Shown: positions 24,315 to 64,000 of the stretch, one piece after another
How positions within the stretch are numbered: the first letter of the stretch is position 1
Layout: every line of letters starts with the position of its first letter
NCBI GenBank assembly: GCA_045837725.1
Contig: JBEWZL010000077.1
Span: 186,001 to 250,000, forward strand
Length of the DNA: 64,000 nucleotides
From: Vermamoeba vermiformis
Taxonomy: Eukaryota
Reading direction: 5' to 3'
The notes under the pieces: model-generated
The model's database searches: none
The model's input: the letters and a program-made list of their open reading frames with translations, nothing else
Told to the model about the DNA's origin: nothing
Made by a program: the position numbers and the translations under genes

Positions 24315-26358
24315 ATGCTGCCTAAACTTCGACTGGTGATGGTGGGAGATCCCCGTGTTGGCAAGGTGACATCTCTTTTTTTAAAACCGCAGATTAACGA
24401 TTATTAATTACTTAGACAATGATGGCGCTGTCTCTTATGAAAGGGGCATTCCCTGAGAAGGGTACAATCCCAACGGTAAGCATTTTAGAATTATTTTTCA
24501 TTCAATAGCTGACCTATCGATCGCTTTCAGTATAGTTTTCTGAATGACTTTTATGTAAGTAACACTCGTTATACTTACTAATATCGCGAAGAATATTTAA
24601 CAAGCCTGACAGGTCACTTGCGAAGGAAAATCAGTGTTAGTGAGCTTGGAAGACACGTACTCGCAGGGCTCAACTGAATTTGTCAAGTATCGCCGCTTAG
24701 TCTACCCTCACACAGGTACAATTCTGTCATAAAATATCTTTCGTATTGACCTTAGCCTAATTATTTAGACGTACTTTTGGTGTGCTTTTCTCTCGCTTCA
24801 CGTGCTAGCTTTGATAATGTTGAGACAACAGTACGATCGATTGAATAATACATATTAGAGTGCCAAGACAGCAGTGTTAATTGTTTGTCATCAGTGGGTG
24901 CCAGAGGTCACGCAGTACTGTCCTAACGTGCCTATAATTCTCGTCGGCAACAAGCTGGATCTGCGATACGAAGCACCGAGGGATGATTCGACAGTCGTGA
25001 GTCAATTGGACGGCGTGAAGTTGGCACGTAGAATTGGTGCGTTTGCTTATGCCGAGAAGTACGTGCCTGGATACACTTTATTGCAGCTATATTGCAAGGC
25101 TGACACTTGACAGCTCTGCTTTGACACGAGAAGGACTGCAGAATGTGTTTGAGATTGCTGTTAGTGCCGTACTTAGTCCCGACAGACCACCGCGAGTGTC
25201 CATATTTACACTTCCCAAGCCAGCTGCACCTGCTGTACTCGCGACTGACCTGCCACTGTCACGCGCACTAGGTCCATTCATTGACACACAACAGTTCGCC
25301 GACTTGACTTTTGTGCTGTCAGACAAACAACAAGTGCACGCGCACAAAGTGATCTTAGCCACGAACTTGCCGAGCTTTTACAAGACATTGCTCAAGGGTG
25401 AAAGTGCCCTGCCTTCGTGCTTCAAACTCAGACCGACAGGACCACAGCCTGGCAGCCCACTCGACCCTCAAACTAGTGCGCAATGGTCAAGAACAGAGCG
25501 CACAATTATCGACACAGACCTGGACTCGCTAGTGCTCCACTGCATTCTCAAGTCCATTTACACTGGCACGGACCTCGAATTCTCCTCAGAAGTCGTGACA
25601 GCAGCTGTTCAATTCTTCACGCAGTGTCCTCGCTTCAGTTCCAAAGAGCGAGAGCAGATTTTGACTGAATTGGCACGCGATCCCAGTCCACCCTTGTCTG
25701 ACGTGTGCTTTCAGATTGGCAAACACCGCGTCTGTGCGCACAAGGTGAGTGTGCTCGAGTTTGACCTAACGAGGCTGACTTGACATGTTTGCAGGTACTT
25801 CTGACAGCAGTCAGCGAGTACTTCGGGGCCATATTCACTAGTGGGCTGAAGGAGTCTCAACTCGATGTGATTCCACTGCACGACATTGACCGCGAAGACT
25901 TTGCACTCTTGAAAGAGTTCTTGTACACTGCTCGCACTGACTCCTTGCACGCGCACAATGTCAGCAATGTCATTCGTCTGGCCAACAAAGTACGTCCCCA
26001 ATGAGTCGTGTGTCTCGCTTACACTAATGTGTGCTGTTAGTACAACTTTTCCGCGCTGATTACACATTGCGAGGTCGTGTGCAAAGACAACATTGACGCG
26101 TTTGATGTGTGGGAACTGTATCAACTCGCTACTGCACACAACTGCCATCAACTGCGGGCCTATCTTATATGGCTGATGACGGTACAATACGATGCTATTC
26201 ATGACCAGACGTGGTTCAAAAAAGAGCTCGAGTCAGATGTGCAGCAACAAGTGACGCGAGAACAATGGCCTGGCTCGGTGTATCACGCCGCAGTGCAAGA
26301 GTGGGAAAAAGAATTAAAAACTCGTGTAAAATCAAGCAGGGATTGTGCAATCATGTAA
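24315..26358 (+). CDS. RhoBTB-type protein (Rho GTPase domain + two BTB domains + CaaX)
   Basis: VGDPRVGKT, WVPEV..CPNVPIILVGNKLDLR, ADLTF..VHAHKVIL, SDVCF..AHKVLL..SEYF, C-terminal CAIM. Confidence 0.9.
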
Positions 26359-27530: not shown

Positions 27531-30134
27531 CTATTTGGAGTCTTCAATCTCGCGCAACAAGATGTTTTGCACGTCGCTGATTGGTCGGTTGTCACGTGAC
27601 AAGAGATCGAGCAGTATTTTGTTGAAGTGCACGGGGATGCCGAGTCTCTCGCCCTCACTCACAATCGCGCCGTTGATGCACGCCACTTCTGTCTTCTCGC
27701 CGCGCTTGACGTCGTAGAGCATGGACGACACATTTTCACTCGTGTCGCGCAGCACTGACAGCACTTTGTCCATCGGATCTGAGTAGGGCAATTGAATTTT
27801 CTTGGCTTGAGCCACTTTGACGGACTCTTGAACTGCTTTCTCGAGCAGTTTGCGACCCACGGGCGAGTTGTAGAGCTCACCGTTACTCAACTGCAACAGC
27901 GCGGTCAATGTGTTGATGCCCGCATTGATGATCAACTTGCCCCAAATCATGCTCTCGAGCTCTTCAGTGACACGTGTCTCAAAACCTGATTCAGTGAAAT
28001 ACGAGGCCCACTCGACCACTGTCAGGATATGTTAGTTATGGACATTAATATCAAGAGCTAGAGTGCCACTTACTGTTGAGATTGAACGGTGAGGACGAGT
28101 TGAGTGCGATGGTGGTGAGACCCATGCCACCGTGCTTGACTTCACCTGCTTGGAGAATAGACGCGCCGTGATTGGTCACACCTTGATAGACACGCATTTG
28201 ACTGCCGAGTTCATCGACGAGCACTTCACGATTGCCAAGTCCGTTCTGCAGTGTGAGCACGACACCCTTCGGACTCAGTATTTGCATCGCTTTCTTTGCT
28301 GCCTCGCGTGTGTGCAGCCCTTTGACGAGCACGACACACAAGTCTGCAGGGCCCACTGAGTTCAACACGTCTTCAGGTCGCTCAGTCACTTTGATGTTGG
28401 TCACGAGCTTCTGTGACTTGTCGAGTTCGTGCAGCACGAGACCTGATTGGTTGATTTTCTCCGCGTGTTCTTTCCACGACGAAATCATCCACACATCGCG
28501 CGGACTATTAGCGGTAATGTGGCTGTACTTTTGACGAGTGAGGGCCAATCTAGCGGCAAACAATGAGCCCATGGCACCACCGCCGATCAAACAGACGTTC
28601 TTCGTCAAGAGCTCGTAGTTGAATGGCTGGCCTAACGTTGAATTGAACGGCGGAATTTCACCAGTGATCACGTCGTTGATTTCGTTGGAGGTCTTCATCG
28701 TGACAGTGTTGCTATTGTTGTTCGTGTTGATGAAAAATTTGAACGAGCTCGCATTCGCCGTGTTCTCAGCTTGCGTGTTTTGACTGCGTGACTGTTGTTC
28801 GGTTGTAGCTTGCATTAAATTGGTGGGCATTGGATTGTTGATCTGCGCGCCTTTCAAGTGACCAGCTTGTCGTTGCAAAAATCTGTCCCACTCTTCAGGC
28901 TTAATGCTGTACGTGTGTTCTTTGGCTGGGAAGCTGCGTTCAGTGACCTCTTCTTTGTACTTTTGCAGCGTCTCAGTCATGATTTGACCGAGATTGATGT
29001 ATTGTTTGCAGAACTTGGGCTTCATATTGGGGTACAAGCCAAACATGTCGTGCCACACCAAGATCTGACCTGAAGTTTTGTTGCCAGCACCAATGCCGAT
29101 AGTAGGGATATCTAGCTTCTTCGTAATGTATTCGCCCACCACTTCAGGCACTGATTCAATGACGAGTGAGAAGCAGCCCGCTTGTTTCAGTGCTTCGGCA
29201 TCCGCTAACAAACTTTCAGCGTCCTAATCAGAGGTCAATAACATGTTATTACATACGACTCAACATCATTATTGTTACCTCAGCGGTCTTGCCCTGCACT
29301 CTGAAGCCACCGAGCGCGCTGAGAGTTTGCGGCGTGAGACCAATGTGACCCATGACTGGCACGCCTGCTTGCACAATGGCCTCGATGCGTGGGGCCATTC
29401 TGCGACCTCCTTCGAGCTTCACAGCATCGACCCGGCCTTCTTTCATCAACCTACAGCGATGTTAGGCGATATTGTATTATTAACCGCTGCGTTAAAGTTG
29501 TACCTGAAGGCACTTTGAATTGCCATTTCAGAACTGGATTCGTAACTGCCAAACGGCATGTCACCAACGACAAAGGTCTTTTGTGCACCACGAGTTACGG
29601 CTTTGCAATGGTGAACCATATCTAGGACAAATAAATTACTTTTTGTTGAAATTTCCAGGTCTTTGCTCGTTAATTCACATCGCGAAATTGAATTAATAAA
29701 TTTAAGGTTGAATAATTACCGTCCATGGTAACTCCAACTGTATTATTCTCTCCCATCATGACCATGCCTATATAAATTAAAATTAGAATTTTCTTGAATT
29801 TTTCAGACGCGGAGCAAACGGATCTGTAGTGGATCGACCCTCGGAATATTTTTTTTAAACAATGATACTCAATTAATTTTATAATAATCGTACCCAGCGA
29901 ATCACCAACGAGCAATGCATCGATCCCGGCTTGATCAGTGATGTACGCCGAGGTGTAATCGTACGCAGTGACCATCGTGATCGGCTTGCCCTCGCGGTAC
30001 TTTTTTTGCAAGTCAAGAATAGTGTTTTTCTTAGATTGGGTCACGGTTGAGTACATTCTCAATGGGTTGATTGATTTTCCCTCGGTATATTTTCGAACTC
30101 CATCACTGATCGTGCGTCGTACAAATTGAAACAT
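27531..30134 (-). CDS. panB-panE: Bifunctional ketopantoate hydroxymethyltransferase (PanB) - ketopantoate reductase (PanE) fusion
   Basis: PanB motifs [51 protein letters not shown] 28051-29211 continues without a stop into PanE motifs IGGGAMG, LQNGLG, then (after intron 28019-28073) [24 protein letters not shown]. Confidence 0.95.
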
Positions 30135-30280
30135 TGAAAAGTAATTGTCCGATCAGATCTGCAACTTGGATCTGTTCAATATGTGAGCTAACGATCAACT
30201 CTTTACTATTCTTAGTTGTGTTGATGTGCGCGTTGAATAAATTGAAATGAAACAGTTGCGCATTTATCTTTTTTCTACCA

Positions 30281-30334
30281 GGGCTGAAATGTCACGTGGT
30301 TCTGTGAACGGCACGTGGCTGCAAGTTTCAGCTC
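30281..30334. promoter_or_regulatory. Quasi-palindromic element with two CACGTG boxes in the panBE/panC bidirectional promoter
   Basis: CACGTG at 30293-30298 and 30312-30317; outer arms GCTGAAA/TTTCAGC and inner arms GTTC/GAAC are complementary. Confidence 0.6.
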
Positions 30335-30421
30335 CGTTTCCATCAACCAGGGCCTCCGTTGGCATATAACAGTGTTTTTTGCACAGATTTAGTTCCACAC
30401 ATCACCACACGAGTGACCATC

Positions 30422-31723
<1,302 letters not shown>

Positions 31724-48406: not shown

Positions 48407-51400
48407 ATGAATTGGAATCAGCGACAAGACTCGCGGCAACAAAATTGGTCTAACCAACAACAGCAGGTAATTAATACTCTCAATTTTAGGTGAACGATGG
48501 AGTCCAATCCCTGTTCGCGAGAAAATCGATAAAATTTTCTGGAGCATTGGACAGCCCATTTTATCATCTTATAAGCATATATGTATTTAAAGGATAATTT
48601 TAAAATTATTTTTATTATTACCCGTAGTCCAGCAACTACGGACGTCAAGGATCGCAGTCGTCGAACTACCAGCAGAACTCGTACGGACAAGGACAAAGCA
48701 ATCAAAGCTATAACCAGCCTTATGTGCCTACAGTACAAACTCAAACGAGCTCTTATGGCTACAACGATAATCAGAGTAAGAAGCGCGATCACCGATGAGC
48801 ATTTTCATGTTTTTAATATGTGTATTATTATCCTCCTATAGATCAAGGTCAGTATTATCCTAGCGCTCAAAAGTCAAATCAGGCGCAACCACAGTCCTCC
48901 TATTATTCGCAGCAGTCTTCGCGAGGTCCTAGCCAATCCGCGCAGCCACAACAGCGTTACAACCCGACCTCATCGAGCCAGTACGCGCCTTCTGGCTCTT
49001 CTCAGCAGTACAACCCTAGCGCTGGCCCTAGTCAACAATACAACCCTCGCACGAGTCAGCCAAGTGCGACGCAAGGTCTCGGGCAGTACGGTGGTGTCAC
49101 GAGCTCATCAATGAGCAGTGGTAGTGGTGTGCAGTCAGGGCAACAAAGTGCACCTAATTTGAACAACTTGAGTCAAATATTGAGTAGTCTCACTAATCTC
49201 AGTGGATTGGTCAATATGCCGACTGGTTCTACGCAGCAGTCAATGCCTCAAACTCAAGCCCCTAATATGTCTAGTGGGCTAAATATGGGCACTAACAGCA
49301 CTGCTGGCCTCAACTCGCTGCTACGCGGTGTGCAACAACAACAACAGCCGCAGCAACAGGTTCAATTGCCAGGCAATCTGTCGCAACTCTTGCAGCAGAG
49401 CACTGGTCCACAAGCCAATGTCACACCGCAACAGAACCAAGCTCTGCAACTGTTGACTGCGCAGCTCTTACAACAACAACAACAGCAACAGCAACAGAAT
49501 GCTGGAGGTTACAAGCCTATCACGCAATCGCACATGTCGATGCCTTCACGACCCATGGGTATGGGTGCCCCTGTCTCCAGTCAGTCTCGATTCTCTTCAG
49601 GTCCGCCACAACGCAATCCTGCTCCTTCTCTTCGTGGTCGGTCAAATGCCCCCGCTCCTCGTTCTGATTTTGGTGGCCGTGGTGGACATCGCGGTGGTGG
49701 TCGTGACTTTGATCGTGATCGATCTGACCGCGATAGAAATGATCGGGACCGAGGCCGTGATGACCGCAAACGATTTGAACGTGACACACGATCGGATCGT
49801 GACAGAAATGACCGCGACAGACCCGCGCGCACAGATCGAGATCGCAATGACCGCGACAAACCTTACCGCAGATCAAAGTCGCCTGAACACAAGCGCGACA
49901 AGTCTCCGCCACCGAAGCCACGTGAAAAAACCCCGCCCAAAACCGTTGAGCCCACAAAAGACAAGGAATCGAGTCACACTGAGGCCCCTAAGAAAGAACT
50001 CACTGAAAAGGACAAAGAAAGAGAACGTGAAAAGCGCAAATATGAATGGTACGTCTTCGTCGTTAGTCATTCAATACTGACTTTATTACAGCAAAATATC
50101 GGCGCACGAAATCACCTCATTCGAGAGAGATTATGCCAGCACACGACGTCGCTATGAAAACTTGTATATCACTCCTGACTTCGCAAAGTCAATCTCTTCA
50201 TGGCTACACAGTGTGCCGCTAGAAGAGCCCCTGCCCCTCGATCATCATGTACCCTTCACGTGTGACAATGAATTTAGAGAGGTCGTTGACCCCGTCAATA
50301 ATGAGGCCCCAGCATTGCAAGCCGATCACACTCGATGGTTCGCTAAAGTGGTGTTATTGACTGGCTATTCGGCTGATGATTACGATGAAATTATGGACTC
50401 TGACAAGCAAAAGGATTTGACCCAAAAATTGAAGTTTATTGTGCAACGTCAAGACCGCTCGCAATTAATGCTGCTTGGTGGAGAATGGGAGCCGACAATT
50501 GATGGCGATGGCGATCCAGCTCAAGATACTACACTAATTCCCTCGGCTATTAGACACGTTCGTGAACAAATACAATTAGACCTGTCACCTTGCACGCGAT
50601 GGTACAGATTTTTAGAAATTCACTATCACCGCGTAGTGCCCAACACTGTGCCAGCAATGGTAGCTCGTGATATTACAGTGATCTATGTGCCCTCTGTGTG
50701 GGACTTGATCCCGTCAATGGATGATGTAAGTGTCAGTTGATTCTAGTTGCAATAACTAATCGATCACCTAGTTTATGGCGACTTGGGAACAACGTGAGTA
50801 TACTAAACTGAAGCGCCAAAAGGACAAAGAAGAGCGCGCTAGATTGGAACGTGAAAAGATTGAGAAAGAACGTCTCGAAAAACAAGAGAAAGAGCGTGCT
50901 GAAAAAGAAAAGCAAGAAAAAGAACGCCTTGAAAAGGAAAAACAGGAAACTGTCGCCGCTAGTGAGGACACTGACCAGTCAATTAATCTCAATCAGTCGG
51001 TGAGTGATCAACCCACTGATCAACCTGAAGCTGCACCTGCCGAGACAACTGAAGCCGCACCCGAACAACCGGCCCAACCTGCTGAAACTAAGCCCGAATC
51101 AGAACCGACTTCGAAGAGTGAAAGTGAGATTGTCGTGGACAAGAGCAAGGCACCCAAAGATGTCACAATCTATTTGAACACAAAACGCGAGAAATTTTTG
51201 AACAGAAAGACAGCCCAACTTTCACTAGACGGTCTTCTCGACTACGACTATGAAGGTGATCGATGGGAGCCAACATTCGAGGTATGTCACGCAAACTAAT
51301 CAGCGTACGTTCTAACCTCTTTTAGGTTTCTTTATTTGCTGAGAACTTCCATGAAATGCTCCAGCGTGACTTTGGCCACATTGTTTTACAAGCTATTATG

Positions 51401-51943
51401 AATGCTCGTCCTGAAAAACCGTCCCAAGATAAGAAACGAAGGCGCGAAGACACGAGCGAGGAAGAACGTGCTGCCAAGAAACCAAAGACCGATGAAACCA
51501 AGCCGGCAGAGACAACACAAGAGTCTGCCCAGGCTGCTGACCAAGCTGCCAAGCCTGAAACAGCAGCACCCGAACAACCGGGCGAGCCTGCGCCAGAAAC
51601 AAGTGCTGCCCCTGAAACAAAAAGCGAAGATGTCAAAACAGAGGAGCACCACGAACCCGAGAGAAAGATTAACTACAGCTTGAAGTTCGCGTTTGAATTC
51701 TTTGATCGCAATCGCACGGGTTACTTGAAGAGCGAGGACGTGGAGACAATGTTCCACGCGCTGGGCTTCCATGTCAGCAAAAATCAAATGCACGCCATTC
51801 TGGCCCACCAACTCGACTCCAAGCATCGTATATTCTACAAGAACTTGTTATACACAGAAGAGCAGCACGACCTCGAGCCCAATGACGGACAGCACGACGC
51901 AATTCCCGTGCCAGAACAAGAGCAGATGGATTTGAATGCTTAA
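48407..51943 (+). CDS. CCAR1: CCAR1/DBC1-family protein (Q-rich N-terminus, RD-rich region, DBC1 domain, coiled coil, EF-hand-like)
   Basis: LYITPDF; LGGEWEPTIDGDGDP..LIPSAIR..LDLSPCTRWYRFLEIHYHR; LSLDGLLDY..FEVSLFAENFHEMLQRDFG; FFDRNRTGYL. Confidence 0.88.
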
Positions 51944-59029: not shown

Positions 59030-62000
59030 TTATTGACTACTAGTGGCAGTAGTAGCAGTGCTAGTCGCTGGTTTTTTCTTCAAAATTTCATCCAAAAACT
59101 CAACCGCAAGTTTTCTGATCGCATTTTGTCGCTGCGGCGTGATTTTCTGCGCAATATTGTTAGTACTTGATGGACAGGTAACGCGCATGATCAACATACC
59201 GAGAATGAAGTGCACTCAGTGAGTCCACCAAAACCAATAGTCTTGAGGTACTTTTTGTTGATCTTCTGATCCGGTCCAATGCTGACCATTTCATAGGAGA
59301 AGATGATCTTCAAGACCTGAATCACTGCTTCGATCACTTCTGGGTTCGTAGACTTGATGATGAACTGCTCCATCTTGGGCAACAACATGTCGTAGGTGAT
59401 GGGCAGTGCTTGCGGTATTTGCAGTCCACCCTCGCGCAGTGATTTGAGAATGAACAGTGTCTCGTGCTCTTTCTCCGAGTCTGCCAAGTTGATGCCCAGC
59501 ATCGCGAACAAGAGCGCGGCGTAGTTGAGATCGGGCACGAGATTTTGCGTGAAGAAGAACGGTCCCGTGTTGCCGAGCTGTGCCTGAGCGAGGGCCTGTT
59601 CAATGTTGAAGCCGCGCAGTGTGGCCGCCTCCGCAGTGAATGCAGCAGACGCGGTGTACGTCTCGCGCAGTGTTTGACGCTCTTCGTCGGACATGACGGG
59701 CAGCAATACCGAGAGATAGCCCAACAAGTCCATGCTGTAGCCACTCACGGGCAACATCTTGTTCGAGACTTGCACCAGTGTCATCAACAGCCGACTCGTC
59801 TTGGTCTTGGTCGCGGATTCTTTCACACCTTTCAACAAGTGCGCGGCCACTGCAAAGCTGAATGAGGTCTCCCAGCTGATGCCCGTGATTGCGTCTAGTT
59901 GTTTCAACACGTGCGCGAATGGGCCAGTGCGTCTGATCTCCATCATCACCGCACTCAGACTGCGACTCTCGAGCAGACCACTCTCGTCCACGCTGCGAAT
60001 AATGGCTTCGAGCAGTGTAATGGCCTCGGCGAACAACTTCTGATCGGAGACTTGCACGAGACACACGACGAGCCAGAACATGGGCGCGTAGTACTTGGAC
60101 TGCGGGGTGATGTAGGGCATCAAGCGACCAAGACAGGTGAGCAGCGCTGTGACGAGCTCTTGATCTGCGTCATCAGCTGCAGGATTGGTGTTCGTGTTGT
60201 TGATGTTGATCACGTTGTTCATGGCCTTGCGCAGTGCAAAGAGCAGTCTCTCGAGCAAGTAGTCGTCCACTGAGTGCTGCAACAGCGCTCCCAACACCAC
60301 AAAGGCACGTGGTTGTAGCGCAATGTTTTCAGTGAATGCCGTGGTGATGGTGAGTGACAGCCAGCGCGTGAGGTACTGATTGGTCCTCGCAGAATTGAGC
60401 AAGCAGTTGAGCACGGAGTAGAGTGCATCGGCCACTGTTTGCAGGGTGCTGACATTCACCTTGGCGGGACGCGGCTCATTCTCAGCCTTGGTCTCGAAAG
60501 GATTGATCTTCTGTCCTGCAATGCCGAACAAGAGTCTGAACTGTGCCTCACCGAACTCATTGATCTTCTCGCTGAGTGCCTCCAAGGGCACTGATTGCGA
60601 GTTCATGGCCGTGTAGAGCGAGTGCACCGTGTTGACGAGCAGGCAGTAGGTGGAGATGCGCACCGTGGAGGCACCAGTGCCCATGAGCATCATCACCAAG
60701 TGGAACAGCTCGGGCAAGTAGTGCGTGACGGAGATGAGATTGGCAAAACTCAAATTGAGCACGAGACGTTGCAGCACAGTGATAGCAGGCCACAACTGAT
60801 GCGCTGCCAACGAGTCGCGGGGCTGAGCAGCGGTCTCGTTGAGTTTGTTCATGAGGCGCGTGATCATCTTGCCGGCAATGAACTGCGAGTTCTGCGAGGC
60901 GAGTGTGATGAGAATGTCGCCCAGCACGACCAGTTCAGGACTGTTCAGCGCGGTGGTCACTGCTTTCTTCATCAGCACATCGAGCACGATCTCGAGTGTG
61001 TCGTAGCTCGTGTTGCCGATCTTCTCCCAGGCCTTGGTCAGCACGGCAGGACGAATCTGAAATTGACAGGTGTCAAACATGTCACATCGAGTGACTGTGC
61101 ATTCAACTTACCATGGTCTCTTTGATAGTGAAGTCCATCAGCGAGGCAATGAACTCGCGCACCTTCTCGGCCTTGTGCGTAAACTGTGAAAGATTGGGCA
61201 GCCAGGGTGAGATGTAGTCGAGACACGAGAGCTTGGTCTCAGGGGTGACACGCTTCATATTGGCGACACTCTCCAACAGGAATTCGAGGGTCAGCTTGGT
61301 CTCAGTCTCCGCCAGTCGCTTGCTCATGTTCGTGACAAAGTGCGAGCTGCTGTTTGGAATGCACAGCCCATTCGTCTTGAGCAGTGCGACGTGCACGGAG
61401 AAGTTGAATGACTTGGCGAGCGCATTGAGCAAGTTGTACGCAGATTCGCGCAGTGGCACCGTGTTGTAGCCGACTGTGACGAGATTGAGCAGCGCCATGT
61501 TGAGCAACAGACCCGGCACATCGCCTGGACCCTTGAGCTGACTGTTGTTGTTGGCCAGTGAGCCAGGCTGCGACGTCATCTCGTAGCCGCGCTTGATGGA
61601 GAGAATGGCCTGCACAATCTCATCGGCCTGTCCACTCTGAGGGGTGCGGAAGGTGATGGATTCGAGTCCACTCTGCTCGTACTTGAGCTGGAACTCTTGA
61701 TCGTTGTTGGACGGTCTCAGCGCATCGACCACCATGCTGATGTGCACCGTGTTCACAATGGCGGCTTGATGGCCCCAGTAGTTGGCGGGCTTGTTGCTGA
61801 TCATCACCAGCGAGCTCTTGTTGATGCGCAGGGTCCACTCACTCGATGCACCTGCACGACCGCGCTTCTGCACTACAAAGCTGTGACGCATCTCGTTCTC
61901 CATGGCCAGTGTGCTGCTCGGCAGACCAGTCTCGCTTGCATCGGGCAACAGCCGCACAAACTCCTTGACCGAGTTGAAGAAAACGAATCGCTTGGCCACC

Positions 62001-64000
62001 TTGTCGACATTCTTGCCCAGCTTGCTGGCAAAGTCGCGGAACTGACGATTGGGGTGCAAGAAGTAGATGTGCTTGAGGCTGTTCTTGGCTTGGTACGGGA
62101 AGTGTTCGATCACCTTGCGCATCAGGCGGATGTCGACTTCGCTCTCTTTGCTGAAGAAAGTCAGATCCACCACAATCGAGAGGGGCTTGTCGAGGTGTGG
62201 CTCGAGTGTCTTGAACACGTAGTACAAGAACACGTCGCTGTCAGGCAGTGTGCGCGCACTGAGTCTGCTGCTGATGAGATAGAACAGCGTGTGACCCTCT
62301 TTGTTCGTGCCCTGACGATAGAAGATGCGCTTGTCACGCACGGCATCGGTGTTGGTGCCCTCCATGTTCTCCATGAAGGTGAGGAACTTGTCGTTGTTGG
62401 ACTGCTCCGTGTTGTCGCCCTGATTGCGTGCGCGGTAGTGCTGTTGCTTGGCCTCGGGCGGATCACCGAGCTTGCTGAGCAGTTGTTGCAGACGCGCTTC
62501 GACATTCTGCTTGGCCTTCCACTGAATCAAGATCTTGGAGATGGGGTCGCTGTTGCTGATCAAGTGGCGGTGAATGGCACCGAGATCTTCTTCGCGCTGT
62601 GCCTCGCTGATCGAGGGCACGAAGGACTTGCCCGCCGTGAGGGGCTTGGGGACCGCGTATTTGTCGAAGAGCTGCTCCATGGTGCTGATATTGGCCTGGA
62701 TGAAGCTGTTCATGTCCATCATGTAGGGCTCTTTCTGGAAGATCTGCAAGTTGGCGAGATTCTGCAGCACTTTGGTGACGAGAATGAGACCGCGCACGAG
62801 TGACTGCGAGGGCACATCTTCCACCAGGCCAAAGTTGCGCGGTGCGACAATGGCGGGACAGAAGAAGCGCAAGAACATGAGTCCACCGACGGCTGTGCGC
62901 TGAATCATGCGGATGTTGCTGCTCGGTGACGGCGTGCTGTTGGGATTGGCTTTCACTGCACCAGGACGCACAGGACTCGGTGACTTGGGTGCTGCACCTG
63001 CGGGCACAGAGCCTGAGTTGGTGAGTGGTCTGGACGGCTGTGCAGTGTTGGGTGTGACAGGGGTGACGGGGGTCTCCGTGGGCTCGCTGGGCATGAACGT
63101 GGCAGTCAGCGGATTGGTACCACTCGTGCCGAATCCACCAGTGATGGGCTGTGGCGTGCCAGTCTCAAATCTCTCTTTGACTTTGAGCGAGAGATAGTGA
63201 CACAGCTCGCACAGTTGTCTGTCGGGCACACAGTTAGAGCGGGTGTGGTACCGCTACTAGCGAGGGACTTACGGGGGACAGGCATCGAGCGAGGAGATGA
63301 TGGACTTGAGGAACATATTTGACACATCGTTAATGTTCTTCATATTAGCCTCTCGGTTCTGGCCGGGTGTGAGTTTGGTTGGATCCACTTCAAAATCGAG
63401 CGGCGTTTGCAAGAGATACTCGAGGGGCTTGCTGAGTGTGTCTTTGAGGTACTGCGAGCCAATCAGCTTGGTGTACGCAGCCATCAACTTGGTGGCCACA
63501 CTGTTGCGGCGGAACAATGTGTTCGGGGACTCGGTCTTGGAAATCTCCGTGCTGATTGCCATTTTTAGCAATCGCAGCGTGAATGACTGGCCCTCATCAT
63601 GAGCAGCTTGTGGTACAGTGCCAGGCGACTGATTGAGTGCAGCCGTGTCCGCGTGACTGGCAGTGTAGGCCTCGCACATGCTGACCAACACGCGCGTGAC
63701 GTCATCAGCCTCGGTGATCTGAATCACTTGCAGCAGCGCTTGAATCACTAGCATGTTCTGTTCGAACAGCAGCTCGAGCAGGGCCTCGTACTTGTCGCGC
63801 AAGTCCTCTTCGCCCTTGTCGAACTCAGCGCCCTGATCGAGAATGTTGGTGATCACCTTCAAGAAGGCTCTGCGCGTGTCAATGTCGTCGTGATAGCCCA
63901 TCTGCGAGAAGTACTCGAGGGCACTGCTCACATTGGCACTCAGCAAGTGACTCAGCGACATGATCGTGTACTTGACGAGCTGCTTGGGCTTGTTGATCTG
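59030..64000 (-). CDS. NF1: Neurofibromin-like RasGAP (5' part lies outside the window)
   Basis: LLSANV..ALEY, TLFRRNSVATK (arginine finger), FLRFFCPAIVAP, KVLQNLAN; Sec14-like and PH-like region; DVPGLLLNMALLNL, LRESAYNLL, LTLEFL, PWLPNL; NF1 C-terminal helical region. Confidence 0.95.

What the first reader, a model, noticed from the sequence alone, without database searches (positions are those of the whole stretch)
28051..29211. In-frame PanB-PanE fusion through an ~80-aa N/Q/T-rich linker
One stop-free frame runs from the PanB C-terminus (FPAKEH) through a low-complexity linker into the PanE Rossmann motif (IGGGAMG). The PanE catalytic Lys (WGKL) and Glu (KTE) motifs are retained. Bacterial PanB is a decamer, so the fusion could place many reductase domains around it and channel ketopantoate (inference). 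A comparable KPHMT-KPR fusion is known from Toxoplasma gondii, so whether this one has a shared or independent origin is an open question. It also bears on which enzyme reduces ketopantoate in eukaryotes.
Basis: partly seen in the sequence, partly recalled or inferred. Interest (0 to 1): 0.75.

Follow-up and report, generated by a model that had tools for sequence, protein, structure and literature searches.

The report
Amoeba PanB-PanE fusion gene, already known
This is a real, intron-containing amoeba gene that joins the first two enzymes of vitamin B5 (pantothenate) synthesis into one protein, but the same fusion is already on record in many other protists, so it is an ordinary member of a known kind.

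Summary
The stop-free frame 28051..29211 (-) is exon 5 (29223..28074) of a six-exon gene (30134..27531, -) encoding a 738-aa protein. The protein runs: N-terminal extension, complete PanB/KPHMT, 104-aa N/Q/T/S-rich linker, complete PanE/KPR. The junction lies inside one exon. A transcriptome-derived ORF of Vermamoeba vermiformis (737 aa, 93% identical, colinear) spans it. The linker frame is kept in a diverged genomic relative, with dN/dS 0.18 against 0.04 for PanB. Catalytic-type residues are conserved.

The fusion is not rare. 108 of the 120 best database relatives carry both domains. They include Dictyostelium, Mastigamoeba (source name "putative fused..."), Balamuthia, Naegleria, Diplonema, Capsaspora and Thecamonas. 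25 of the 120 also carry PanC. Papers describe the fusion in Toxoplasma, Perkinsus and chromerids.

The window's copy groups with other Amoebozoa, without strong support. Ketopantoate channelling around a PanB decamer remains untested. The gene sits head-to-head with panC, 287 bp apart. Novelty: already known. Interest: low.

The parts
29894..30134 (-). Exon 1. It holds the start codon, a 35-aa basic N-terminal extension (a possible mitochondrial presequence) and the start of the PanB domain, up to the GDSLG motif.
   Evidence: Pfam Pantoate_transf profile positions 1-44 of 259, E 9.5e-13. The exon is followed by a GT donor. The extension has 7 K+R against 2 D+E in residues 1-35. AlphaFold2 pLDDT is below 50 for residues 1-32.
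29720..29767 (-). Exon 2 (48 nt), PanB domain.
   Evidence: AG acceptor and GT donor, frame kept. The junctions match the 738-aa orthologue P0001 without a gap.
29504..29621 (-). Exon 3 (118 nt), PanB domain with the GDMPF motif.
   Evidence: Splice sites and frame. D117 is invariant in 18 of 18 aligned fused proteins.
29279..29450 (-). Exon 4 (172 nt), PanB domain with the VKLEGG and GHIGLTPQ motifs.
   Evidence: Pfam Pantoate_transf profile positions 100-161 of 259, E 3.7e-24. K147, E149 and H171 are invariant in 18 of 18.
28909..29223 (-). Exon 5, first 105 codons: the C-terminal third of PanB, ending at ...FPAKEHTY (protein residue 298).
   Evidence: Pfam profile positions 160-258 of 259. 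It aligns to the last residue of PDB PanB chains. dN/dS against L001 is 0.038.
28597..28908 (-). Exon 5, codons 106-209: the 104-aa interdomain linker (protein residues 299-402). Its start forms a predicted helix (302-320) and is followed by a disordered N/T/S/Q-rich core (320-391).
   Evidence: N+Q+T+S make up 43% of the linker and 53% of its core, against 22% in the rest of the protein. pLDDT is below 50 for 320-391. dN/dS is 0.18, with one in-frame 1-codon indel against L001. No tandem repeat was found.
28074..28596 (-). Exon 5, codons 210-383: the N-terminal Rossmann domain of PanE (GGGAMG and QNG motifs).
   Evidence: Pfam ApbA profile positions 1-146 of 150, E 2.3e-29. G407, G409 and N520 are invariant in 18 of 18.
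27531..28018 (-). Exon 6: the C-terminal helical domain of PanE with WGKL (K604) and KTE (E687), and the TAG stop at 27533..27531.
   Evidence: Pfam ApbA_C profile positions 2-122 of 125, E 9.6e-34. K and E align with the conserved K and E of the solved reductases 3hwr and 5hws. K604 is kept in 17 of 18 and E687 in 15 of 18.
30135..30421 (.). 287-bp divergent intergenic region between the fusion gene and panC. It is presumed to be a shared bidirectional promoter.
   Evidence: The two start codons were placed. The same head-to-head layout is seen in the related contig L001. Promoter function is inferred, not tested.
30422..31723 (+). The neighbouring panC gene (pantoate-beta-alanine ligase), about six exons, transcribed away from the fusion gene.
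   Evidence: Six exon frames cover Pfam Pantoate_ligase profile positions 2-268 of 268 in order, with E values from 2.2e-05 to 3.6e-20. The exact splice sites of panC were not worked out.

Best explanation
This is a nuclear gene of a Vermamoeba-like amoebozoan. [quoted passage not shown]

The gene is transcribed as one six-exon mRNA and translated as one chain. The chain runs: a short basic N-terminal extension, a complete PanB TIM barrel, a roughly 100-aa mostly disordered tether, and a complete two-domain PanE.

The PanB part makes ketopantoate from 2-oxoisovalerate and methylene-tetrahydrofolate. The PanE part reduces ketopantoate to pantoate with NADPH. The divergently transcribed neighbour panC then ligates pantoate to beta-alanine.

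What is shown here:
- the gene structure;
- both domains complete, with conserved active-site-type residues;
- the linker is coding and under selection;
- a full-length transcript exists in a close relative;
- the architecture is shared with many eukaryotes.

What is inferred:
- the enzyme activities, from family membership;
- mitochondrial location, from the presequence-like N-terminus and the Toxoplasma, plant and yeast precedent;
- the benefit of the fusion, which could be fixed 1:1 expression and co-location, or possibly substrate hand-over on a PanB oligomer.
For: Gene model:
- Five GT..AG introns of 126, 98, 53, 55 and 55 nt; the CDS is 2217 nt.
- The spliced product aligns 1-738 to 1-738 with P0001 at 93.6% identity and 0 gaps. 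All five junctions are matched.

Transcript support:
- Cluster member P0188 is a Trinity transcript ORF of EukProt Vermamoeba vermiformis, 737 aa, 93.4% identical, with one gap at residue 361.
- Five further 738-aa ORFs sit on contigs of only 2.4-3.4 kb, so those contigs lack introns.
- On 324-336 kb contigs the same cluster appears as exon-sized ORFs of 401/408 aa and 58/62 aa.

Domains:
- Pfam hits.
- NCBIfam scores for P0001 are above the curated cut-offs: panB equivalog 324.6 bits (cut-off 207.55) and apbA_panE 236.3 bits (cut-off 141.35).
- PDB sequence hits go to PanB and KPR chains only.
- The fold matches PanB at TM 0.87-0.89 and KPR at 0.85-0.90, normalised to the target.

Residues:
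- D78, D117, K147, E149, H171, E216 and N520 are kept in 18 of 18 aligned fused proteins.
- K604 is kept in 17 of 18 and E687 in 15 of 18.

Linker:
- dN/dS 0.18 against 0.038 for the PanB part; one in-frame indel.
- Open in 90 of 20,000 shuffles.

Context:
- The neighbours are ordinary eukaryotic genes: LRR, ABC transporter, RasGAP/CRAL_TRIO, DBC1, BTB.
- panC is adjacent.

Precedent:
- The T. gondii KPHMT-KPR runs near its predicted full size on a western blot and is mitochondrial (passages of PMC8764084).
Against: - No transcript or protein data exist for this genome itself. The transcript evidence is from relatives that are 93% identical.
- dS between the window and L001 is about 1.4, which is saturated, so the dN/dS values are rough.
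- The AlphaFold2 model gives no confident domain-domain arrangement (pTM 0.50), so nothing supports a fixed channel.
- The PanE/ApbA family also holds enzymes with other substrates, for example D-mandelate dehydrogenases among the fold matches. Reductase specificity is therefore inferred from fusion and context, not shown.
- Mitochondrial targeting rests only on composition and analogy.
Confidence: 0.9

Rival explanations
1. The gene is fused at the DNA and mRNA level, but the cell makes two separate enzymes. This would happen by proteolytic cleavage in the disordered linker, or by internal initiation at one of the linker methionines.
For: The linker core (320-391) is predicted disordered and would be accessible to proteases. 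Methionines lie at residues 325, 330 and 369. One cluster member, P0186 (464 aa, source name '2-dehydropantoate 2-reductase'), starts at residue 275 on a 1560-nt contig.
Against: P0186 begins inside the PanB domain, not in the linker. It sits on a short contig, so it looks like a truncated assembly. The T. gondii fusion runs near full size on a western blot. Linker lengths among fused homologues go down to 9-30 aa, which leaves little room for a conserved processing site.
Confidence: 0.06
2. The PanE-like half is a paralogue of the ApbA family that reduces a different 2-oxo acid, so the fusion is not a KPHMT-KPR.
For: Fold and sequence matches include D-mandelate dehydrogenases and 'oxidoreductase' NCBIfam models. 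Only the subfamily-level model TIGR00745 passes its cut-off; no PanE equivalog model does.
Against: The domain is covalently linked to PanB, and in 25 of the 120 best relatives to PanC as well. It sits next to panC in this window. N520, K604 and E687 are conserved. The best PDB sequence hits are named ketopantoate reductases.
Confidence: 0.03
3. The fusion is a reading artefact: two adjacent genes, or a pseudogene, with the low-complexity stretch being non-coding spacer that happens to be open.
For: The linker is low-complexity and the least conserved part: 82-85 of 104 residues are identical to the six Vermamoeba-cluster orthologues, against 255 of 263 in PanB.
Against: The frame is open in only 90 of 20,000 shuffles. 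dN/dS is 0.18 and the only indel is in-frame. The linker is retained in the transcript-derived ORF. In 155 of the 157 sequences that carry both domains, PanB comes before PanE in one chain.
Confidence: 0.01

Closest known systems
Vermamoeba vermiformis transcriptome protein (EukProt EP00029, P004562/P004563; P0188 here) and the 738-aa JGI proteins of the same 90% cluster (P0001 etc.)
   Same: Same length, same domain order, same linker. It is 93.4% identical over the whole chain with one gap.
   Different: About 7% of residues differ, and the differences are concentrated in the linker (83 of 104 identical). The window therefore comes from a related lineage or strain and is not the same sequence.
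Fused PanB-PanE of other protists. Examples: Dictyostelium discoideum AX4 (833 aa, NCBI/UniProt name '3-methyl-2-oxobutanoate hydroxymethyltransferase') and Mastigamoeba balamuthi (source name 'putative fused ... hydroxymethyltransferase + 2-dehydropantoate reductase'). Also Balamuthia, Arcella, Echinamoeba, Planoprotostelium, Naegleria, Acrasis, Diplonema, Capsaspora, Thecamonas and Fabomonas.
   Same: The same three Pfam domains in the same order, at 35-58% identity. In the PanB tree the window groups with Vermamoeba (100*). It then groups with Arcella, Mastigamoeba and Echinamoeba at SH-aLRT 94, below the star threshold.
   Different: Linker length varies from 9 to 147 aa. It is 32 aa in Echinamoeba and 104-136 aa in Vermamoeba and the dictyostelids. 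Linker sequence is not conserved between lineages.
Toxoplasma gondii KPHMT-KPR (TGME49_257050), with the fusions reported in other coccidia and Perkinsus
   Same: A bifunctional PanB-PanE chain. The Toxoplasma protein is expressed at full length and is mitochondrial (passages of PMC8717973 and PMC8764084).
   Different: The Toxoplasma tagged protein is far larger (144 kDa). Its sequence was not among the proteins fetched, so direct orthology was not tested here.
Trifunctional PanB-PanE-PanC proteins: Salpingoeca rosetta, Stephanoeca, Didymoeca, Sappinia, Stygamoeba, Incisomonas, Chloroparvula, Vitrella and acoel worms. Chromera is reported in PMC8717973.
   Same: The same PanB then PanE order and a homologous PanE.
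   Different: In those proteins PanC is fused to the C-terminus. In this window panC is a separate gene, divergently transcribed 287 bp upstream.
Stand-alone bacterial PanB (PDB 1m3u, 1oy0, 3vav) and PanE (PDB 1ks9/2ofp, 3hwr, 5hws)
   Same: The same folds and conserved residues. PanB is about 40% identical and PanE 24-31% identical in fold alignments. The nearest unfused PanE sequences are 40-45% identical and, where named, come from Chloroflexi/Anaerolineae.
   Different: Those are separate genes and proteins with no linker and no N-terminal extension. No solved chain among the listed matches spans both domains.

Membership tests
PanB / ketopantoate hydroxymethyltransferase (Pfam PF02548, NCBIfam TIGR00222) | Full-length match to the family profile above the curated cut-off | tested here: met
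   Window exon frames hit Pfam profile positions 1-44, 100-161 and 160-258 of 259. Exons 2-3 (about profile 45-99) were not scanned against Pfam on their own. The spliced protein matched my own PanB HMM over positions 1-263 of 263. The 93.6%-identical P0001 scores 324.6 bits against a cut-off of 207.55.
PanB / ketopantoate hydroxymethyltransferase (Pfam PF02548, NCBIfam TIGR00222) | Metal-binding and catalytic acidic/basic residues of the TIM barrel. Their roles are recalled from the E. coli and M. tuberculosis structures, not from a call. | tested here: met
   D78, D117, K147, E149, H171 and E216 are present in the window protein and invariant in 18 of 18 fused homologues.
PanB / ketopantoate hydroxymethyltransferase (Pfam PF02548, NCBIfam TIGR00222) | Decameric (pentamer-of-dimers) assembly, as in bacterial PanB crystals | not tested
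   PDB entries 3ez4, 3vav and 1m3u list 10 chains each. No oligomer of this protein was modelled.
PanE/ApbA ketopantoate reductase (Pfam PF02558 + PF08546, NCBIfam TIGR00745) | Both domains present and above the cut-offs | tested here: met
   ApbA 102.4 bits (cut-off 22.2) and ApbA_C 116.9 bits (cut-off 22.7). P0001 scores 236.3 bits on TIGR00745 against 141.35. No equivalog-level PanE model reached its cut-off.
PanE/ApbA ketopantoate reductase (Pfam PF02558 + PF08546, NCBIfam TIGR00745) | GxGxxG dinucleotide fold, plus the active-site Asn, Lys and Glu (E. coli N98, K176, E256; that numbering is recalled) | tested here: met
   G407, G409 and N520 are kept in 18 of 18, G412 in 17 of 18, K604 in 17 of 18 and E687 in 15 of 18. 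K and E align with the conserved K and E in 3hwr and 5hws. The alignment to E. coli 1ks9 itself was not displayed.
PanE/ApbA ketopantoate reductase (Pfam PF02558 + PF08546, NCBIfam TIGR00745) | Substrate is ketopantoate, not another 2-oxo acid | not testable with these tools
   Supported only by the fusion to PanB and the adjacency to panC.
Eukaryotic bifunctional KPHMT-KPR (as described for Toxoplasma gondii) | PanB followed by PanE in one reading frame on one mRNA | tested here: met
   The junction lies within exon 5. A transcript-derived 737-aa ORF exists in V. vermiformis.
Eukaryotic bifunctional KPHMT-KPR (as described for Toxoplasma gondii) | Common descent with the apicomplexan fusion | tested here: inconclusive
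   In the PanE tree all 39 fused rows lie on one side of a 98* branch and 30 bacterial-type rows lie on the other. The PanB tree is unresolved, needing 14 label changes. No Toxoplasma sequence was available. Vitrella, the only alveolate row, sits on a long branch.
Eukaryotic bifunctional KPHMT-KPR (as described for Toxoplasma gondii) | Stable full-length protein located in mitochondria | not testable with these tools
   Only the basic N-terminal extension and the Toxoplasma precedent bear on this.

The most novel reading that the evidence does not exclude
The PanB-PanE fusion arose once, early in eukaryote history, using a PanE of a Chloroflexota-like bacterial type. It has been inherited vertically ever since. 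Repeated further fusion to PanC, or fission, then produced today's mix of B-E, B-E-C and split forms. On this reading the head-to-head panC / panB-panE pair in Vermamoeba is one state of that series. The long disordered tether would let several reductase domains sweep the surface of a PanB decamer and capture ketopantoate inside the mitochondrion.
Probability: 0.2. Interest if true: 0.4.

Novelty: already known. Interest (0 to 1): 0.12.

Why it matters
The importance is modest.
- It confirms that this free-living amoeba carries a complete three-activity route from 2-oxoisovalerate to pantothenate in two adjacent genes.
- It adds one more genomic copy, with exon structure, of a fused enzyme that people lack.
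- The same fusion occurs in the pathogenic amoebae Balamuthia and Naegleria, so what has been argued for the Toxoplasma enzyme as a drug target could be asked there too.
- The survey done here shows the fusion far outside the alveolates. None of the four literature searches found this discussed. That breadth is the only mildly new point, and it comes from public databases, not from this window.

Tried and rejected
- Whole-genome search: no genome is held for this window.
- Earlier notes of this scan: none on this genome or sequence. The one word hit, on a bacterial panB neighbour, is unrelated.
- Metagenome scan for the P0001 contig: it did not return that contig, only the genomic relative L001.
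There is no verdict, and it was not tried any other way.
- Bacterial promoter/terminator scan of the intergenic region: uninformative for a eukaryote.
- Tandem repeats in the linker DNA: none.
- First dN/dS attempt: the ungapped comparison was misaligned by a 1-codon indel. It was redone with a codon alignment.
- PanB tree as a test of single against multiple fusion events: too poorly resolved, and many 'unfused' rows are unnamed and may be fragments or split gene models.
- Toxoplasma sequence: not obtained.
- Bacterial contamination was considered and rejected. The gene has spliceosomal introns and eukaryotic neighbours.
Full report
**The observation**

The minus strand carries a 390-codon stop-free frame at 28051..29223.
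- Pfam finds the last 99 profile positions of Pantoate_transf (160-258 of 259, E 1.8e-38) at its residues 2-100.
- Pfam finds the first 146 of 150 positions of ApbA (E 2.3e-29) at residues 210-373.
- Against solved structures, the PanB part aligns right to the last residue of chains 3ez4, 3vav and 1oy0. The ApbA part aligns from residue 4-6 of ketopantoate reductases.
- The 104 codons between the two domains stay open in only 90 of 20,000 nucleotide shuffles. The two other frames hold 6 and 5 stops.

**Gene structure**

The window is eukaryotic DNA. Reading the strand and checking the splice sites by script gives six exons:
- 30134-29894
- 29767-29720
- 29621-29504
- 29450-29279
- 29223-28074
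- 28018-27531

The five introns (126, 98, 53, 55 and 55 nt) all start GT and end AG. The CDS is 2217 nt, or 738 aa.

Its final codons and its stop belong to the fifth intron. The WGKL and KTE motifs are in exon 6, which Pfam calls ApbA_C (E 9.6e-34).

The model is validated by database protein P0001 (738 aa). It aligns 1-738 to 1-738 at 93.6% identity with no gap, and every exon junction is matched.

**Whose gene it is, and whether it is expressed as one unit**

P0001's 90%-identity cluster has 19 members.
- One member is a Trinity transcript ORF of EukProt Vermamoeba vermiformis: 737 aa, 93.4% identical to the window protein, with one gap at residue 361.
- Five 738-aa ORFs lie on contigs of 2.4-3.4 kb. 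These contigs cannot contain the five introns, so I infer they are cDNA-like.
- On contigs of 324-336 kb the cluster shows up as exon-sized pieces of 401/408 aa (exon 5) and 58/62 aa (exon 4).

The window therefore comes from a Vermamoeba-like amoebozoan, and in close relatives the mRNA runs through the junction. Neighbouring genes are ordinary eukaryotic ones: LRR proteins, an ABC transporter, a RasGAP + CRAL_TRIO protein, DBC1, Metallophos and BTB. No whole genome is held.

**The linker**

By domain boundaries the linker is residues 299-402, 104 aa.
- AlphaFold2 on P0001 with an 18-sequence alignment gives mean pLDDT 80.4 and pTM 0.50. Both enzymes fold confidently. A helix is predicted at 302-320, and residues 320-391 have pLDDT below 50.
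- N+Q+T+S make up 43% of the linker and 53% of its core, against 22% elsewhere.
- No tandem repeat underlies it.
- L001 is a 2706-nt metagenome contig, 76.5% identical in DNA. It has the same exon layout and the same upstream panC.
  - Compared with L001, the PanB part of exon 5 has dN/dS 0.038 (94 of 105 residues identical).
  - The linker part has dN/dS 0.18 (49 of 78 identical), with one in-frame single-codon indel.
  - dS is about 1.4, so these ratios are approximate.
- Within the Vermamoeba cluster the linker is 82-85 of 104 identical, against 255 of 263 in PanB.

The linker is translated and constrained, but loosely.

**Both enzymes look active**

P0001 passes the NCBIfam cut-offs for the panB equivalog (324.6 against 207.55) and for apbA_panE (236.3 against 141.35).

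In the 18-sequence alignment the window protein keeps these residues:
- D78, D117, K147, E149, H171 and E216 in PanB, all 18 of 18.
- G407, G409 and N520, all 18 of 18.
- K604, 17 of 18.
- E687, 15 of 18; two of the other rows are gaps.

The roles of these residues are recalled from work on the E. coli enzymes, not from a call. K604 and E687 align with the conserved K and E of solved reductases 3hwr and 5hws.

Fold search returns only single-enzyme chains. PanB matches at TM 0.87-0.89 and KPR at 0.85-0.90. No listed solved chain spans both domains. D-mandelate dehydrogenases also appear among the matches, so substrate specificity is inferred from context.

**How common the fusion is**

- A search for longer relatives of exon 5 gave 32 proteins. 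By precomputed Pfam, 31 of them carry PF02548 and PF02558.
- A profile search gave 1098 proteins at E <= 1e-30. Of the 120 listed, 108 carry both domains, and 25 of those also carry PanC.
- Named sources, by group:
  - Amoebozoa: Dictyostelium discoideum AX4 and other dictyostelids, Planoprotostelium, Protostelium, Cavostelium, Balamuthia, Arcella, Echinamoeba, Mastigamoeba balamuthi (whose source name is 'putative fused ...'), Stygamoeba and Sappinia.
  - Opisthokont relatives, apusomonads and ancyromonads: Capsaspora, the record labelled Nk52, three choanoflagellate genera, Thecamonas and Fabomonas.
  - Discoba and diplonemids: Naegleria, Acrasis and several diplonemids.
  - Other protists and algae: Incisomonas, Chloroparvula and Vitrella.
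  - Animals: two acoel worms and a mite.
- With my own domain HMMs, 157 of 382 sequences held both domains. In 155 of them PanB precedes PanE, with 9-147 aa between them. In the triple forms PanC follows PanE.
- In the 50%-identity library, 48 representatives matched at E <= 1e-30.

In print:
- Passages of PMC8717973 describe the bifunctional enzyme in coccidia and Perkinsus, and a trifunctional ORF in Chromera and Vitrella.
- Passages of PMC8764084 show that the Toxoplasma protein runs near full size and is mitochondrial.
- Four full-text searches found no paper discussing the fusion outside alveolates. Only listings were read for those. Subscription journals are not covered.

**Origin**

PanE tree (77 rows, quick IQ-TREE).
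- Rows used: 39 named fused sequences, 2 eukaryote PanE-only sequences, and 36 of 113 unfused candidates (6 named, the first 8, and 22 at random).
- Thirty unfused rows, including all six named bacteria (Chloroflexi/Anaerolineae-type and Anaeroselena), fall on one side of a branch with SH-aLRT 98.
- Every fused row falls on the other side. Six unnamed short 'unfused' proteins fall there too and may be fragments.
- This fits one eukaryotic PanE lineage, but the tree is unrooted and many branches are long.

PanB tree (70 rows).
- Rows used: 35 fused and all 35 near-complete PanB-only sequences. Four fused rows with incomplete PanB were left out.
- Fused and unfused forms, including plants, are intermixed, needing 14 label changes. 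The tree cannot count fusion events.
- The window groups with V. vermiformis (100). It then groups with an unnamed relative, Arcella, Mastigamoeba and Echinamoeba (94, not starred). This suggests vertical descent within Amoebozoa but does not establish it.

**Mechanism**

Shown: one gene, one mRNA in relatives, and two complete enzymes of consecutive steps joined by a flexible tether.

Inferred:
- The two activities.
- Mitochondrial import, from the basic N-terminus (7 K+R against 2 D+E in 35 residues) and the Toxoplasma precedent.
- The benefit of fusion, as fixed stoichiometry and co-location.

The low pTM gives no sign of a fixed interdomain interface. The one complex-prediction job was not folded.

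**Neighbour**

panC lies head-to-head with the fusion gene. Six exon frames at 30422..31723 (+) cover Pantoate_ligase positions 2-268 of 268. The two start codons are 287 bp apart, and the layout is the same in L001. Two adjacent genes thus encode all three steps from 2-oxoisovalerate to pantothenate.

**Verdict**

The finding is correct in substance but ordinary. The same fused protein is already in public data for the same genus, and the architecture is annotated across eukaryotes and published for alveolates.

Noticed in passing
window 30422-31723 (+), with intergenic 30135-30421: A panC gene (pantoate-beta-alanine ligase, about six exons) is transcribed divergently from the fusion gene. 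The start codons are 287 bp apart, so two adjacent genes encode all three pantothenate steps. The same layout is seen in the related contig L001.
   Followed up: partly
P0200 (Oppia nitens, oribatid mite): A 742-aa fused PanB-PanE annotated in a mite genome. In the PanE tree it is sister to the dictyostelid clade with SH-aLRT 100. In the PanB tree it falls with the dictyostelids in a 95* group, unresolved within it. This points to horizontal transfer from, or contamination by, a dictyostelid-like amoeba.
   Followed up: partly
Proteins P0268-P0381: The nearest stand-alone PanE proteins are 40-45% identical to the amoeba PanE domain over 93% of its length. Where named, they come from Chloroflexi/Anaerolineae/Ardenticatenaceae genomes and one Anaeroselena. 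This hints at the bacterial type from which the eukaryotic PanE derives.
   Followed up: partly
P0213, P0045, P0219, P0222, P0215, P0192, P0029, P0226, P0250, P0022, P0024: Trifunctional PanB-PanE-PanC proteins occur in choanoflagellates, Sappinia, Stygamoeba, Incisomonas, the green alga Chloroparvula, Vitrella and acoel worms. By my domain coordinates PanC sits at the C-terminus, so the order follows the pathway.
   Followed up: partly
P0009 (Echinamoeba exundans) against the window protein: Echinamoeba exundans, another amoebozoan, has only 32 aa between the two domains, against 104 aa here. The long N/T/S/Q-rich tether therefore looks like a lineage-specific expansion. Long linkers also occur in dictyostelids (104-136 aa).
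   Followed up: partly
P0233 (912 aa, ENA): This is the one protein with the reverse order (PanE before PanB). Precomputed Pfam also lists ABC_tran and PF04337 in it. It may be a mis-joined gene call.
   Followed up: no
P0251 (Dictyostelium citrinum, 373 aa, PanB only): A PanB-only protein that is nearly identical to the PanB half of the D. discoideum fusion (100* pair). The same species also has a fused entry (P0014). It is probably a split gene model or a second locus.
   Followed up: no
window 59191-64000 (-): G+C rises to 55-56% here, against about 40-45% elsewhere. The long ORFs encode RasGAP and CRAL_TRIO_2 domains, a neurofibromin-like combination, and a weak MOR2-PAG1_C match.
   Followed up: no
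window 25019-25780 (+) and 50081-51940 (+): A BTB/POZ-domain ORF lies just downstream of the fusion gene's 3' end. Further away there are DBC1, LAIKA and EF-hand ORFs. These are ordinary eukaryotic neighbours.
   Followed up: no
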